A stretch of DNA of 64,000 nucleotides from a phage: the sequence record PX104380.1. The stretch is one strand, 5' to 3'. Positions 29,443 to 33,562 of the stretch are shown here, piece by piece; position 1 is the first letter of the stretch, and every line of letters starts with the position of its first letter. A program made the translations under genes and the position numbers. Below the pieces are notes generated by a model. That model was not told the DNA's origin and searched no databases. It saw nothing but the letters and a program-made list of their open reading frames with translations.

Positions 29443-32400
29443 ATGGCTACTTTAAAACAAATACAATTTAAAAGAAGCAAAACGGCAGGTCAACGTCCAG
29501 CTGCTTCAGTATTAGCCGAAGGTGAATTGGCTATAAACTTAAAAGACCGTGTACTTTTTACTAAAGATGACCAGGGAAATATTATTGATTTAGGTTTTGC
29601 TAAAGGCGGTAGTATTGACGGGAATGTTATTCATAAAGGCAATTATAACCAAACTGGCGATTATACTTTAAACGGTACATTCACCCAGACTGGTAATTTT
29701 AATTTAACCGGTATTGCTCGAGTAACTCGTGATATTATTGCTGCTGGGCAGATTATGACTGAAGGCGGAGAACTTATTACAAAAAGTTCAGGTACATCAC
29801 ATGTTCGTTTTCATGATTCAGCTGACCGTGAACGTGGAATCATTTTTTCTCCTGCTAATGATGGATTAACTACACAAGTAATTAACATCAGAGTTCAAGA
29901 TTACAAAGCCGGTTCAGAAAGCACTTTCGCTTTTAATGGAAATGGTTTGTTTTCTTCACCAGAAGTTTTTGGGTGGAAATCTGTATCAACTCCGGTAATT
30001 TATACCAATAAAGTTATCACCAATAAAAAAGTTAAAGATGATTATGACATCTATTCGATGGCAGACAATGTTCCATTGTCTGAAAGCACTACTGCTATTA
30101 ATCATCTACGTGTCATGCGCAATGCAGTCGGTTCTGGTATTTTCCATGAAGTTAAAGATAATGATGGAATAACTTGGTATAGTGGAGATGGATTAGATGC
30201 TTATCTGTGGTCATTTACCTGGAGCGGCGGAATTAAATCAAGTCACTCAATTTCCATCGGTTTAACACCCGGACCTAAGGATTACTCAATATTAGGACCG
30301 TCTAGTATCGCTTTAGGAGATAATGATACTGGATTTAAATGGCATCAAGACGGATATTATTTCAGTGTTAACAATGGCACAAAAACGTTTTTATTTAGTC
30401 CAAGCGAAACAACTAGCCTAAGAAAATTTGTAGCTGGATATTCTACTAACGGAACCGATTTAACTACTCCTCCAACTGAAAATTATGCTCTTGCTACTGT
30501 AGTGACATACCATGATAATAACGCGTTTGGGGATGGTCAGACTCTTTTAGGATATTATCAAGGCGGTAACTATCATCATTATTTCCGCGGCAAGGGCACT
30601 ACAAACATTAATACTCACGGCGGGTTGTTAGTTACTCCAGGCAATATTGACGTTATTGGTGGTTCTGTTAATATCGATGGTAGAAATAATGCTTCTACAG
30701 CGATGTTTAAAGGTAACACAACAGGTAGTAGTTCTGTGGATAACATGACAATTTCTGTGTGGGGTAATACATTTATTAATCCAAGCGAAGGCACCCGCAA
30801 AAATGTCATGGAAATTTCCGATGCAACTAGCTGGATGAGCTATATTCAAAGACTTACTACTGGTGAAGTAGAAATGAACGTTAACGGTTCATTTGAATCA
30901 TCTGGTGTTACTGCTGGAAATAGAGGAGTTCACACAACAGGCGAAATTTCATCTGGAGCAGTGAATGCGCTTCGCATTTGGAATGCAGATTATGGAGCCA
31001 TTTTTAGACGTTCAGAAGGAAGTCTTCATATTATTCCAACTGCTTACGGTGAAGGCAAAAATGGTGATATCGGTCCACTTCGTCCATTTAGTATTGCTTT
31101 GGATACTGGTAAGGTTGTTATTCCAGATTTAGAATCAAGTTATAACACGTTTGCTGCAAATGGCTACATTAAATTTGCTGGTCATGGGGCTGGTGCCGAC
31201 GGTTATGATATTCAGTATTCACAAGCTGCTCCTATTTTCCAAGAAATCGATGATGCTGCTGTAAGCAAATATTATCCTATTGTTAAACAGAAGTTTTTAA
31301 ACGGTAAAGCCGTTTGGTCTTTAGGTACTGAAATTAATTCAGGTACTTTTGTTTTACATCATTTGAAAGAAGATGGTTCACAAGGCCATACATCAAGATT
31401 TAATGCTGATGGTACAGTTAATTTCCCCGATAACGTTCAGGTCGGCGGCGGTGAAGCTACTATTGCTCGTAATGGTAATATTTTCTCAGATATTTGGAAA
31501 TCGTTTACTTCTGCGGGAGAAACCACAAATATTCGCGATGCAATAGCTACTCGTGTTTCTAAAGAAGGCGACACGATGACTGGTAAATTGACTTTATCGG
31601 CAGGCAATGATGCTCTCATTTTAACTGCGGGCGAAGGTGCTTCATCACATATCCGTAGTGATGTAGGTGGTACAGGTAACTGGTATATAGGCAAAGGCGG
31701 CGGCGACAATGGTCTAGGTTTTTATAGTTACATTACACAAGGCGGTGTATACATAACAAATAACGGCGAAATATCGCTTTCTCCTCAAGGTCAAGGAACA
31801 TTTAATTTTAATAGAGACCGCCTTCATATAAACGGTACACAATGGGTTGCGCACCAAGCTGGTGATTGGGGAAACCAATGGCGACAAGAAGCGCCAATAT
31901 TTGTAGATTTTGGCAATGTCGGTAATGATAGTTATTACCCGATTATCAAAGGAAAATCTGGTATTACTAATGAAGGATACATATCGGGTGTTGATTTTGG
32001 TATGCGACGCACTACTAACCAATGGGCTCAGGCTATTATCCGTGTTGGTAACCAGGAAAATGGTTCTGACCCACAAGCTATCTATGAATTTCACCACAAT
32101 GGAGTTCTGTATGCTCCTAATATGGTTCAAGCTGGAGCAAGATTATCAGCTGGCGGTGGTGACCCTGTATGGACCGGCCCGTGTCTTGTTATTGGTGATA
32201 ATGATACTGGATTAGTTCATGGTGGTGACGGCCGAATCAATATGGTTGCAAATGGAGCGCATATTGCTTCGTGGTCTTCATCTTATCATTCTCATCCTGG
32301 CCTTTGGGATTCAAATGGAGCTTTTTGGACAGAAGTTGGCAAAGCAATTATTTCTCACGGCCATCTTGTCCAGGCGAATGACAGTTATTCCACATATGTC

Positions 32401-32754
32401 CGCGATGTTTATGTCCGTTCTGATATTCGTGTTAAAAAAGACCTTGTTAAATTTGAAAATGCTTCACAAACACTTTCAAAAATTAACGGTTACACTTATA
32501 TGCAGAAGCGAGGCCTAGATGAAGAAGGCAATCAGAAATGGGAACCTAACGCCGGTTTGATAGCTCAAGAAGTTCAAGCTATTTTGCCTGAATTAGTTGA
32601 AGGTGACCCTGATGGCGAAGCTTTACTTCGTTTGAACTACAACGGTGTAATCGGTTTAAATACAGCTGCAATCAATGAGCATACTGCAGAAATTGCAGAA
32701 CTTAAGTCAGAGATTGAAGAGCTTAAAAAATTAGTTAAATCATTGTTAAAATAA
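29443..32754 (+). CDS. 37: long tail fibre distal subunit gp37, 1103 aa, with C-terminal intramolecular-chaperone (peptidase S74-like) domain
   Basis: N-terminus conserved with gp36-binding region; C-terminus [10 protein letters not shown]...NGYTY...[15 protein letters not shown]...[14 protein letters not shown] is typical of self-cleaving tail-fibre chaperone domains. Confidence 0.9.
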
Positions 32755-32759
32755 AATGA

Positions 32760-32773
32760 GGGGCTTCGGCCCC
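32760..32773 (+). other. UUCG-tetraloop hairpin in the 37-38 intergenic region
   Basis: GGGGC-UUCG-GCCCC immediately upstream of gp38 GGAGG RBS. Confidence 0.45.
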
Positions 32774-32785
32774 TTGGAGGTTTAT

Positions 32786-33562
32786 ATGGCAGTAGCAGGA
32801 CCGTGGGTAGGATCGTCTGCAGTAATTAATACAGGACAAAATTGGATGGGTGGCGCGGCCCAACGATTAAGAATGGGCATTCCGTTCTGGATGAGTAATA
32901 TGATAGGTCGATCTGTTGAAGTAATTCACACACTTGGAGCGGACCATAACTTCAATGGTCAATGGTTCCGAGATAGATGTTTTGAGGCAGGTAGTGCACC
33001 TATAGTGTTTAATATCACTGGAGATTTAGTATCATATTCTAGAGACGTTCCTTTATTCTTCATGTACGGAGATACACCGAATGAATATGTTCAATTGAAT
33101 ATACACGGCGTAACGATGTATGGTCGCGGCGGGAATGGTTGGGCTGCTGGAGCGATTGGAGCGTCTGACGGTGGTGTATGTATCCAAAATGATATAGGTG
33201 GACGCCTACGAATTAATAATGGGGGAGCTATTGCTGGAGGCGGCGGCGGTGGCGGTGGATATTCGCAAGCCAATAACTGGGCAGGAAAATATGTATGTGG
33301 AGGCGGCGGTGGTCGTCCATTTGGTTTAGGCGGAAATAATGGTGCTCGATGGCCTGGTGGAAATGCTAGCTTAACAGCACCTGGTGCTGGTGGTAATACT
33401 GGCCAATATTGGGCTGGCGGTGGAGGTGAAGTTGGTCAACCAGGTCAATATGCTAATCCAGGTAATGGTTATTCAACACCTCCGACAAATCCTGGTGCTG
33501 CTGTAGCAGGATCGGCTCCAACATGGCAAAACGTTGGAGCCGTATACGGTTCAAGAGTATAA
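32786..33562 (+). CDS. 38: gp38 tail-fibre tip adhesin (T2-type, glycine-rich), ~258 aa
   Basis: ATG at 32786 after GGAGG; conserved [34 protein letters not shown]; multiple poly-Gly motifs separating variable segments. Confidence 0.8.

What the first reader, a model, noticed from the sequence alone, without database searches (positions are those of the whole stretch)
29443..33562. T2-type receptor-recognition module: gp37 with self-cleaving chaperone domain plus glycine-rich gp38 adhesin
gp34, gp35, gp36 and the gp37 N-terminus read as near-T4, but the distal tip does not. gp37 (1103 aa) ends in an S74-like intramolecular chaperone domain (about 32395-32754; [10 protein letters not shown]...NGYTY...[15 protein letters not shown]). 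gp38 (32786-33562) is a glycine-rich adhesin with poly-Gly motifs separating variable segments (about 33137-33480). In this architecture gp38 stays on the fibre tip and sets host range. A T4-like fibre shaft with a T2-like tip suggests modular exchange of the receptor-binding cassette.
Basis: partly seen in the sequence, partly recalled or inferred. Interest (0 to 1): 0.55.

Follow-up and report, generated by a model that had tools for sequence, protein, structure and literature searches.

The report
Known AR1/PP01-type phage tail-fibre tip
This is the ordinary, already well-studied receptor-binding tip of a T4-family phage of the kind that infects E. coli O157:H7: a long fibre protein that cuts off its own folding helper, capped by a glycine-rich adhesin. 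The same adhesin is found in more than ten sequenced phages.

Summary
gp37 (29443-32754, 1103 aa) ends in a Peptidase_S74 intramolecular chaperone (Pfam 45 bits; E 1e-44 to the solved S16 gp37 tip). It carries the Ser993/Lys998 dyad and a predicted cleavage site DVYVR^SDIRVKK. gp38 (32786-33562, 258 aa) is a T2-type adhesin: Pfam GP38 243 bits, Gp38_N 73 bits, E 3e-138 to the PP01 gp38 crystal structure 9V85. It has no similarity to the T4 gp38 chaperone.

The "T4 shaft plus T2 tip" reading is only partly right.
- gp34 and gp35 are about as close to T2 (92-96%) as to T4 (94-97%).
- Only the first 55-75 residues of gp37 are conserved. The rest is about 30% identical to both T4 and T2.
- The whole g37-g38 block belongs to the known AR1/PP01/CAM-21 lineage of O157-infecting Tequatrovirus phages. 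gp37 is 99.1% and gp38 100% identical to CAM-21.
- The receptor-binding half of gp38 is identical in at least 11 deposited phages.
- The tip block 31500-34100 is 99.9% identical to CAM-21, against a 96% background. That fits recent cassette exchange within this lineage.

The likely receptor is OmpC, by homology to PP01 and AR1. Already known; low interest.

The parts
28747..28754 (+). T4-type late promoter TATAAATA upstream of gene 36. Inferred start of the 36-37-38 late transcription unit.
   Evidence: exact match 24 nt upstream of the g36 ATG. It follows a UUCG hairpin with a T-run at 28719-28740. Its function is inferred from T4 knowledge. The motif count in the window as a whole is not above chance.
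28778..29434 (+). gp36, distal hinge connector (218 aa). The centre (aa ~50-150) is diverged from T4 and T2; the ends are conserved.
   Evidence: Pfam PF03903, 99.6 bits. Identity: 79% to T4, 80% to T2, 99.5% to AR1.
29443..32754 (+). gp37, distal half-fibre subunit precursor (1103 aa), AR1/PP01/CAM-21 type.
   Evidence: Identity: 99.1% to CAM-21, 95.9% to AR1, 85% to PP01, 31% to T4, 29% to T2.
29443..29609 (+). Conserved gp37 N-terminus (aa 1 to ~55). It is the only part of g37 with nucleotide homology to T4. Left boundary of the variable cassette.
   Evidence: The blastn HSP to T4 ends at 29609 and to T2 at 29671. Protein windows are 90-92% identical at aa 1-50 and fall to 20-28% by aa 76.
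30790..31095 (+). Gp34_trimer-like module inside the gp37 shaft (aa 450-551).
   Evidence: Pfam PF21446, 33 bits. PDB 4UXE and 5NXF gp34 fragments, E about 1e-13. 36% identical to the window's own gp34 aa 954-1101.
32182..32418 (+). gp37 distal tip (aa 914-992), ending in DVYVR. Predicted docking surface for gp38 once the chaperone has been cut off.
   Evidence: Aligns to the S16 gp37 tip in PDB 6F45_A, E 1e-44 over aa 914-1103. The docking role is inferred from S16 (PMC7917993, which cites Dunne 2018).
32416..32421 (+). Predicted autocleavage site R992^S993.
   Evidence: DVYVR^SDIRVKK aligns with the S16 site DLNVS^SDRRIKK (site taken from PMC7917993). T2 has NVYIR-SDIRLK. Cleavage was not tested here.
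32419..32751 (+). Intramolecular chaperone (Peptidase_S74) domain, aa 993-1103 (111 aa), with the Ser993/Lys998 dyad and a C-terminal coiled-coil-like tail.
   Evidence: Pfam PF13884 at aa 993-1052, 45.3 bits against a cut-off of 22. 6F45_A E 5e-35 for this segment alone, plus a weak match to the MYRF S74-like domain 7DC3.
32759..32774 (+). Intercistronic hairpin AGGGGC-UUCG-GCCCCU between the g37 stop and the g38 ribosome-binding site.
   Evidence: Read directly from the sequence. Folded at -15.1 kcal/mol in context, z -1.7. Its function is not known from this work.
32776..32780 (+). Shine-Dalgarno GGAGG, 5 nt upstream of the g38 ATG.
32786..33562 (+). gp38, T2-type tail-fibre tip adhesin (258 aa).
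   Evidence: Pfam PF05268 243 bits and PF21721 73 bits. PDB 9V85 E 3e-138 and 6F45_D E 6e-53. 100% identical to the CAM-21 adhesin.
32786..32905 (+). gp38 N-terminal gp37-attachment domain (aa 1-40), with Trp7, Trp21 and Trp35.
   Evidence: PF21721 at 1-40 of 40. Aligned to S16 gp38. The role of the Trp 'prongs' comes from PMC7917993 and Dunne 2018.
33128..33475 (+). Glycine-rich (PGII sandwich) receptor-binding region with five recognition loops: A 33140-33157, B 33266-33295, C 33335-33352, D 33395-33412 and E 33455-33475.
   Evidence: Gly runs. Loop boundaries are transferred from the PP01 structure by alignment. Loops A-C are identical to PP01. Loops D and E differ (T207Q, delG208, Y210W, A228N in PP01 numbering).
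33595..34251 (+). Holin t. Conserved right flank of the cassette and part of the 99.9% block shared with CAM-21.
   Evidence: Pfam PF11031, 389 bits. 98% identical to T4. T4 DNA homology resumes at 33570.

Best explanation
The window comes from a Tequatrovirus (T4-family) phage. Genes 37 and 38 form the standard 'T2-type' receptor-recognition module, in its AR1/PP01/CAM-21 variant.

Proposed mechanism:
1. gp37 is made as a 1103-aa precursor.
2. Its C-terminal 111 residues (S993-K1103) are a Peptidase_S74 intramolecular chaperone that helps the three chains trimerise.
3. The chaperone then cuts itself off at R992^S993, using the Ser993/Lys998 dyad.
4. This exposes a flat hydrophobic tip ending in DVYVR.
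5. One gp38 molecule docks on that tip through its N-terminal, Trp-bearing attachment domain and stays in the virion.
6. The C-terminal half of gp38 is a polyglycine-II sandwich. Five hypervariable loops protrude from it and bind the outer-membrane receptor, most probably OmpC of E. coli O157 and Shigella.

What is shown here: gene structure, family membership, presence of the catalytic dyad, and near-identity to experimentally characterised proteins. What is inferred by homology: cleavage, virion incorporation and receptor identity.

Evolution. g37 from about codon 55 through the end of g38 is a hypervariable cassette between conserved flanks (the gp36/gp37 junction on the left, t on the right). 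Its distal 2.6 kb has recently been shared among O157-infecting phages.
For: Family assignments:
- PF13884 at 45 bits (GA 22), PF05268 at 243 bits, PF21721 at 73 bits.

Solved relatives:
- gp37 aa 914-1103 against the S16 gp37 tip plus IMC (6F45_A), E 1e-44.
- gp38 against the PP01 RBD (9V85), E 3e-138, and against S16 gp38 (6F45_D), E 6e-53.

Dyad and cleavage motif:
- Conserved with S16 and T2.

No similarity to the T4 arrangement:
- None to T4 gp38.
- None to the T4 gp37 His-rich needle C-terminus.

Known relatives:
- gp38 is 100% and gp37 99.1% identical to CAM-21 (O157:H7 host). They are 95-96% identical to AR1.
- gp38 aa 106-258 is identical in 14 records from at least 11 phages, isolated on O157 strains and on Shigella.

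Published function of the PP01 homologue (PMC12892980):
- PP01 gp38 sits at the fibre tip.
- It binds OmpC of O157 through loops D and E.
- Its N-terminal 113 aa must match the cognate gp37.

Cassette boundaries and recent sharing:
-.
Against: Nothing contradicts the architecture. There are caveats.
- Cleavage and virion incorporation were not and cannot be tested here.
- The receptor is inferred. Relative to PP01, the window's gp38 differs exactly in the two loops shown to contact OmpC: loop D (T207Q, delG208, Y210W) and loop E (A228N).
- In the PP01 chimera system A228D or deletion of A228 abolished infection, whereas delG208 was tolerated. Fine specificity could therefore differ.
- Hosts of phages carrying the identical allele are taken from database record fields, not from receptor experiments.
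Confidence: 0.93

Rival explanations
1. One reading: a recent chimera in which a T4 fibre (gp34-gp37 shaft) acquired the T2 tip (gp37 C-terminus plus gp38) by a single exchange between a T4-like and a T2-like parent.
For: gp34 and gp35 are 94-97% identical to T4, and the first ~55 aa of gp37 are about 90% identical to T4. The tip is of the T2 architectural type.
Against: - T2 has equally T4-like gp34 and gp35 (92-96% to the window).
- gp37 aa 76-900 is 12-60% identical to both T4 and T2 in 50-aa windows, about 30% overall.
- Apart from one short, roughly 70%-identical stretch near 30950-31050, no blastn homology to T4 lies between 29609 and 33570, or to T2 between 29671 and 33492.
- gp38 is only 50% identical to T2 gp38.
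- The whole block is collinear and 91-98% identical with AR1, CAM-21 and many other phages.
Confidence: 0.03
2. T4-type system: gp38 is a non-structural assembly chaperone, and the gp37 tip itself binds the receptor.
For: None, beyond gene order and gene name.
Against: - BLASTP of the window's gp38 against T4 gp38 gives E 17 and no hit.
- gp38 matches the adhesin profiles and structures.
- gp37 lacks the T4 His-rich needle C-terminus and carries an S74 IMC instead.
Confidence: 0.01
3. Same architecture, but a receptor specificity different from PP01 and AR1. This could be a different OmpC allele spectrum or another porin, caused by the loop D/E substitutions.
For: All five C-terminal differences from PP01 lie in or beside loops D and E. 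PP01 A228 is sensitive to polar substitution and Y209/Y230 are important. The same allele occurs in phages isolated on O157, on other E. coli and on Shigella. T207 is a site of adaptive change in PP01.
Against: Loops A-C and the scaffold are identical to PP01. The equivalent of Tyr209 (Y208) and of Tyr230 (Y229) is retained. delG208 was tolerated experimentally. Several carriers of the identical allele were isolated on O157:H7, the OmpC(O157) host.
Confidence: 0.2

Closest known systems
Escherichia virus CAM-21 (OP611477), vB_EcoM-G157lw, KMB42 and Ec_O157kw long tail fibre distal subunit plus tail fibre adhesin
   Same: gp38 is 100% and gp37 99.1% identical at protein level. DNA 31500-34100 is 99.3-99.9% identical. 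Gene order is the same.
   Different: Upstream of about 31500 the window is 2-10% diverged from CAM-21, with a patch of 19 mismatches per 200 nt at 30600-30800. The rest of the window has other closest relatives, at about 95-97%.
Phage AR1 g37/g38 (NC_027983; AF208841) and phage PP01 gp37/gp38 (LC348379; gp38 RBD crystal structure PDB 9V85, PMC12892980)
   Same: Same lineage, same lengths and same domain order. gp38 is 95% identical to both. Loops A-C are identical to PP01. gp37 is 96% identical to AR1 and 85% to PP01. In PP01 the receptor is OmpC of O157. AR1's receptor is also OmpC, from my own knowledge of the AR1 literature.
   Different: Loop D is one residue shorter: NTGQYW against NTGTGYY in PP01. 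Loop E carries Asn where PP01 and AR1 have Ala228. There are seven changes in the gp38 attachment domain (aa 8-19). The AR1 gp37 tip (aa 776-1000) is only 78-88% identical.
Salmonella phage S16 gp37-gp38 complex (PDB 6F45; Dunne et al. 2018)
   Same: Same architecture: a trimeric gp37 tip, an autocleaved 113-aa IMC, and a monomeric gp38 with a Trp-prong attachment domain and a PGII sandwich. The cleavage motif [SR]^SD..[IV]KK is conserved.
   Different: Roughly 50-60% identity in the aligned tip and IMC, with lower identity in the gp38 loops. It is a different genus and a different host OmpC.
Phage T2 gp37/gp38 (LC348380)
   Same: The archetype of the architecture: a C-terminally processed gp37 (NVYIR-SDIRLK) and a glycine-rich gp38 adhesin retained on the fibre.
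   Different: gp37 is 1341 aa and 29% identical. gp38 is 50% identical with different hypervariable loops. According to PMC12892980, PP01-type gp38 does not function on T2 gp37 unless its N-terminal 113 aa are swapped.
Phage T4 gp37/gp38 (NC_000866)
   Same: Same locus and flanks (34, 35, 36, t, asiA at 79-100% identity). The gp37 N-terminal ~55 aa and the internal Gp34_trimer-like module are shared.
   Different: T4 gp37 ends in a His-rich needle that binds the receptor itself and has no S74 domain. T4 gp38 is an unrelated 183-aa assembly chaperone that is absent from virions.
Endosialidase / phage T5 pb1 / MYRF intramolecular chaperone (Peptidase_S74, PF13884)
   Same: Pfam match above threshold, Ser-x4-Lys dyad, position at the extreme C-terminus of a trimeric fibre, and a weak direct match to the MYRF domain 7DC3.
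   Different: Only remote sequence similarity outside the T-even group. What it exposes here is a docking site for a separate adhesin rather than the final receptor-binding tip.

Membership tests
Peptidase_S74 intramolecular chaperone (IMC) domain | Sequence match to the family profile above the curated threshold | tested here: met
   PF13884 at aa 993-1052, covering 1-57 of 58 profile positions, 45.3 bits against a cut-off of 22, E 1e-11.
Peptidase_S74 intramolecular chaperone (IMC) domain | Catalytic Ser-Lys dyad (Ser, then Lys five residues later) at the start of the domain | tested here: met
   S993 and K998 in R-S-D-I-R-V-K-K. They align with the S16 sequence S-S-D-R-R-I-K-K, whose cleavage site is published.
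Peptidase_S74 intramolecular chaperone (IMC) domain | Located at the extreme C-terminus of a trimeric fibre or spike protein | tested here: met
   The domain occupies the last 111 of 1103 aa of gp37. gp37 also carries a Gp34_trimer module and matches trimeric fibre structures.
Peptidase_S74 intramolecular chaperone (IMC) domain | Autoproteolytic release after trimerisation | not testable with these tools
   Needs protein chemistry. It is known for S16 (PMC7917993, which cites Dunne 2018). It is also known for T2, from my own knowledge of Drexler, Riede and Henning 1986.
T2-type gp38 tail-fibre adhesin (PF05268 / PF21721) | Profile matches to both the N-terminal attachment domain and the adhesin body | tested here: met
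   PF21721 at 1-40 of 40, 73 bits. PF05268 at 1-218 of 218, 243 bits.
T2-type gp38 tail-fibre adhesin (PF05268 / PF21721) | Glycine-rich motifs alternating with hypervariable segments in the C-terminal half (PGII sandwich) | tested here: met
   About ten Gly runs lie between aa 115 and 228. Gly is 36% there against 14% in the N-terminal half. The region aligns residue by residue to the PP01 and S16 crystal structures. Variation relative to PP01, AR1 and T2 concentrates between the Gly runs.
T2-type gp38 tail-fibre adhesin (PF05268 / PF21721) | Encoded immediately downstream of a gp37 that carries a removable C-terminal IMC | tested here: met
   The g37 stop is at 32754 and the g38 ATG at 32786, on the same strand.
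T2-type gp38 tail-fibre adhesin (PF05268 / PF21721) | Present in the virion at the fibre tip and determines the receptor | not testable with these tools
   Shown for PP01 (95% identical), S16 and T2 in the literature. Not tested for this phage.
T4-type gp38 assembly chaperone | Sequence similarity to T4 gp38 | tested here: not met
   BLASTP E 17. No hit at 1e-3.
AR1/PP01 lineage of OmpC-binding Tequatrovirus fibres | Collinear high identity across g37-g38 | tested here: met
   Full-length megablast matches at 91-98%. Protein identities are 85-99% for gp37 and 95-100% for gp38.
AR1/PP01 lineage of OmpC-binding Tequatrovirus fibres | Dependence on OmpC as receptor | not testable with these tools
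   Inferred only. Loops D and E, which contact OmpC in PP01, carry four changes here.

The most novel reading that the evidence does not exclude
The loop D/E allele of gp38 found here (NTGQYW and NPGNGYS, against NTGTGYY and NPGAGYS in PP01) has spread at 99.9% DNA identity across otherwise approximately 96% diverged backbones. It may confer a shifted or broadened OmpC-allele range, covering O157 plus Shigella and other E. coli. It places a polar Asn at the position where PP01 needs a hydrophobic residue, which would imply a somewhat different docking geometry in the OmpC loop-5/loop-7 cleft. This would be a natural example of host-range tuning by two loops, not a new kind of system.
Probability: 0.25. 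Interest if true: 0.2.

Novelty: already known. Interest (0 to 1): 0.08.

Why it matters
It matters little for discovery. The architecture has been known since the 1980s and structurally solved (S16 in 2018, PP01 in 2026). This exact adhesin is already deposited and annotated in many phage genomes.

Its practical value is in annotation. It predicts that the phage is an AR1/PP01-like, probably OmpC-dependent, O157/Shigella-infecting Tequatrovirus. It also identifies the exchangeable cassette (about 29610-33570) and the five loops that would be targeted in host-range engineering.

'T4-like proximal fibre' does not distinguish T4 from T2, and the variable unit is the whole of gp37 beyond its first ~55 residues, not only the tip.

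Tried and rejected
- T4-type gp38 chaperone: rejected. There is no similarity.
- Alternative g38 start at 32756 from the ORF lister: rejected. It lies in the UUCG hairpin and has no Shine-Dalgarno sequence. 32786 has GGAGG upstream and matches the annotated homologues.
- 'T4 shaft plus T2 tip' chimera: rejected by sliding-window protein identity and blastn breakpoints.
- Search for structured RNAs, tRNAs or introns in the window: Rfam gave 0 gathering hits and ARAGORN found 0 tRNAs.
- Internal DNA direct repeats in g37 that might mediate the deletions seen in PP01 lab evolution: only short repeats of 15-21 nt at 71-87% identity, probably chance. At protein level there is a weak repeat of 27% identity, which BLASTP self-comparison did not report.
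- The Npj Viruses 2025 gp38 phylogeny paper does not mention AR1, PP01, Sf23 or CAM-21, so it gives no receptor assignment for this clade.
- I did not run the large protein-database searches, structure prediction or fold search. Near-identical annotated genomes and solved structures already answered the question.
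Full report
OBSERVATION.
- gp37 is 29443-32754 (1103 aa).
- gp38 ends at 33562.
- The holin t is 33595-34251.
- Upstream lie gp34 (23722-27591), gp35 (27600-28715) and gp36 (28778-29434).

The mechanical ORF for gp38 starts at 32756. That ATG sits inside a GGGGC-UUCG-GCCCC hairpin (32759-32774). The ATG at 32786 is preceded by GGAGG (32776-32780) and corresponds to the annotated start in AR1 and CAM-21.

- The gp37 C-terminus matches Peptidase_S74 (PF13884) at aa 993-1052, 45.3 bits against a gathering score of 22.
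- gp38 matches GP38 (PF05268, 243 bits) and Gp38_N (PF21721, 73 bits).
- t matches the T holin.

Gly runs in gp38 span aa 115-228 (nt 33128-33469). Gly content there is 36%, against 14% in the N-terminal half. This explains the local G+C peak of 48%.

WHAT IT IS. Against solved structures:
- gp37 aa 914-1103 aligns with the Salmonella phage S16 gp37 tip plus intramolecular chaperone (6F45_A), E 1e-44. The last 119 aa alone give E 5e-35, plus a weak hit to the S74-like domain of MYRF.
- gp38 aligns with the PP01 gp38 receptor-binding domain (9V85), E 3e-138, and with S16 gp38 (6F45_D), E 6e-53.

The S16 cleavage site DLNVS^SDRRIKK (PMC7917993) aligns with DVYVR^S993-D-I-R-V-K998-K here and with NVYIR-SDIRLK in T2. 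The Ser-Lys dyad is therefore present. The predicted released fragment is 111 aa, leaving a 992-aa mature gp37. T4 gp37 ends in the unrelated His-rich needle, and T4 gp38 shows no similarity to this gp38.

HOW IT MOST LIKELY WORKS. This is inferred by homology and not tested here.
1. The IMC drives trimerisation of the gp37 tip.
2. It cleaves itself off at R992^S993.
3. [quoted passage not shown]
4. The five loops protruding from the polyglycine-II sandwich of gp38 bind the receptor.

For PP01 gp38, which is 95% identical, the published findings are as follows (PMC12892980).
- The protein sits at the fibre tip.
- It binds OmpC of E. coli O157 via loops D and E.
- Its N-terminal 113 aa must match the cognate gp37, because PP01 gp38 does not work on T2 gp37.

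That last point explains why the gp37 tip and gp38 travel together.

COMPARISON WITH T4, T2 AND CLOSE RELATIVES. Protein identity of the window, in %:

| Protein | T4 | T2 | AR1 | CAM-21 |
|---|---|---|---|---|
| gp34 | 94 | 92 | 98 | 98 |
| gp35 | 97 | 96 | 96 | 99.5 |
| gp36 | 79 | 80 | 99.5 | 98.6 |
| gp37 | 31 | 29 | 96 | 99.1 |
| gp38 | none | 50 | 95 | 100 |
| t | 98 | 97 | 98 | 99 |

PP01 gives gp37 85% and gp38 95%.

In 50-aa windows, gp37 is 90-92% identical to T4 and T2 only at aa 1-50. It then falls to 12-60% for the rest. Nucleotide homology to T4 ends at 29609 and resumes at 33570. Homology to T2 ends at 29671 and resumes at 33492.

- The proximal half-fibre does not separate T4 from T2.
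- The distal shaft is neither T4-like nor T2-like.
- The whole g37-g38 block belongs to the AR1/PP01 lineage.

PREVALENCE.
- The 4.1-kb region has 121 near-full-length megablast matches in the phage collection. The best are CAM-21 (98.4%), 11B_SA_NWU (97.2%), JY01, Sf23, G4507 and AR1, all annotated as distal fibre subunit plus adhesin.
- gp38 aa 106-258 is 100% identical in 14 records from at least 11 phages. Their hosts include O157:H7 strains and Shigella.
- Window 31500-34100 differs from CAM-21 at 3 positions in about 2.6 kb, which is 99.9%. The same holds for G157lw, with 99.3-99.4% for KMB42 and Ec_O157kw.
- The surrounding 25 kb is about 96% identical to CAM-21, and other parts of the window have different best relatives.

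This is the real signature of cassette exchange. It has occurred within the lineage and includes the gp37 distal third, gp38 and t.

FINE DIFFERENCES. Relative to PP01, gp38 has 13 differences.
- Seven lie in the attachment domain (aa 8-19).
- One is V253/I.
- Five lie in or beside loops D and E: A198/S, Q207/T207, deletion of G208, W209/Y210 and N227/A228.

In PP01, delG208 is tolerated, Y209 is essential, A228 tolerates Val or Leu but not Asp or deletion, and T207 is a site of adaptive change. Here the equivalents of Y209 and Y230 are retained, but A228 is Asn. Because phages carrying the identical allele were isolated on O157:H7, the allele is functional. Whether its OmpC-allele spectrum differs from PP01's is open. 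This is the only mildly novel reading.

VERDICT. The architecture, the lineage and even the exact adhesin sequence are already known and annotated. Interest is low.

Noticed in passing
window 28719-28740 and 32759-32774: There are two C(UUCG)G-type tetraloop hairpins in the fibre operon. One follows g35 (GAGGGAGCC-UUCG-GGUUCCCUU plus a T-run) and is directly followed by the late-promoter motif TATAAATA at 28747. The other (GGGGC-UUCG-GCCCC) lies between the g37 stop and the g38 Shine-Dalgarno sequence. From my own knowledge, such hairpins are a known feature of T4 intercistronic regions.
   Followed up: partly
window 26420-26950 (gp34 aa ~900-1075) and 28930-29230 (gp36 aa ~50-150): Two further patches are diverged from both T4 and T2 (50-80% identity) but about 100% identical to AR1 and CAM-21. 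The gp34 patch coincides with the Gp34_trimer module, which is 36% identical to gp37 aa 423-560 of the same phage.
   Followed up: partly
window 31500-34100: This block is 99.9% identical to CAM-21 and G157lw (3 mismatches), while flanking DNA is about 96% identical. Different parts of the 64-kb window have different closest relatives, for example ECP52 for 1-12000 and vb_GEC_SH_GT for 36901-61800.
   Followed up: partly
window 31180-31530 vs 31843-32193 (gp37 aa 580-696 vs 801-917): There is a weak internal protein repeat of 27% identity, with a shared APIF...YYPI[VI]K motif, 221 aa apart. PP01 lab evolution repeatedly deleted g37 bp 1980-2650 (PMC6027323), which is roughly one repeat period. 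No long DNA direct repeats were found.
   Followed up: partly
window 20825-21454 (-): A SegG homing-endonuclease ORF lies between gene 32 and gene 59. It is 98% identical to T4 SegG and has no Pfam hit.
   Followed up: yes
window 12890-13531 (-): A 213-aa HNH plus NUMOD3 ORF, a free-standing homing-endonuclease type, lies between nrdB (11715-12893) and nrdA (13531-15795). Its stop overlaps the nrdB start.
   Followed up: partly
window 1-64000; td 16353-17213 (-), nrdB 11715-12893 (-): The window gave no Rfam gathering hit and no tRNA. td (286 aa, full Thymidylat_synt match) and nrdB are uninterrupted. From my own knowledge, T4 carries group I introns in these genes; they are absent here.
   Followed up: partly
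window 22700-23632 (-): The mechanical ORF for rnh starts at a TTG and gives 310 aa. The annotated homologues are 305 aa, so the true start is probably 15 nt downstream.
   Followed up: no
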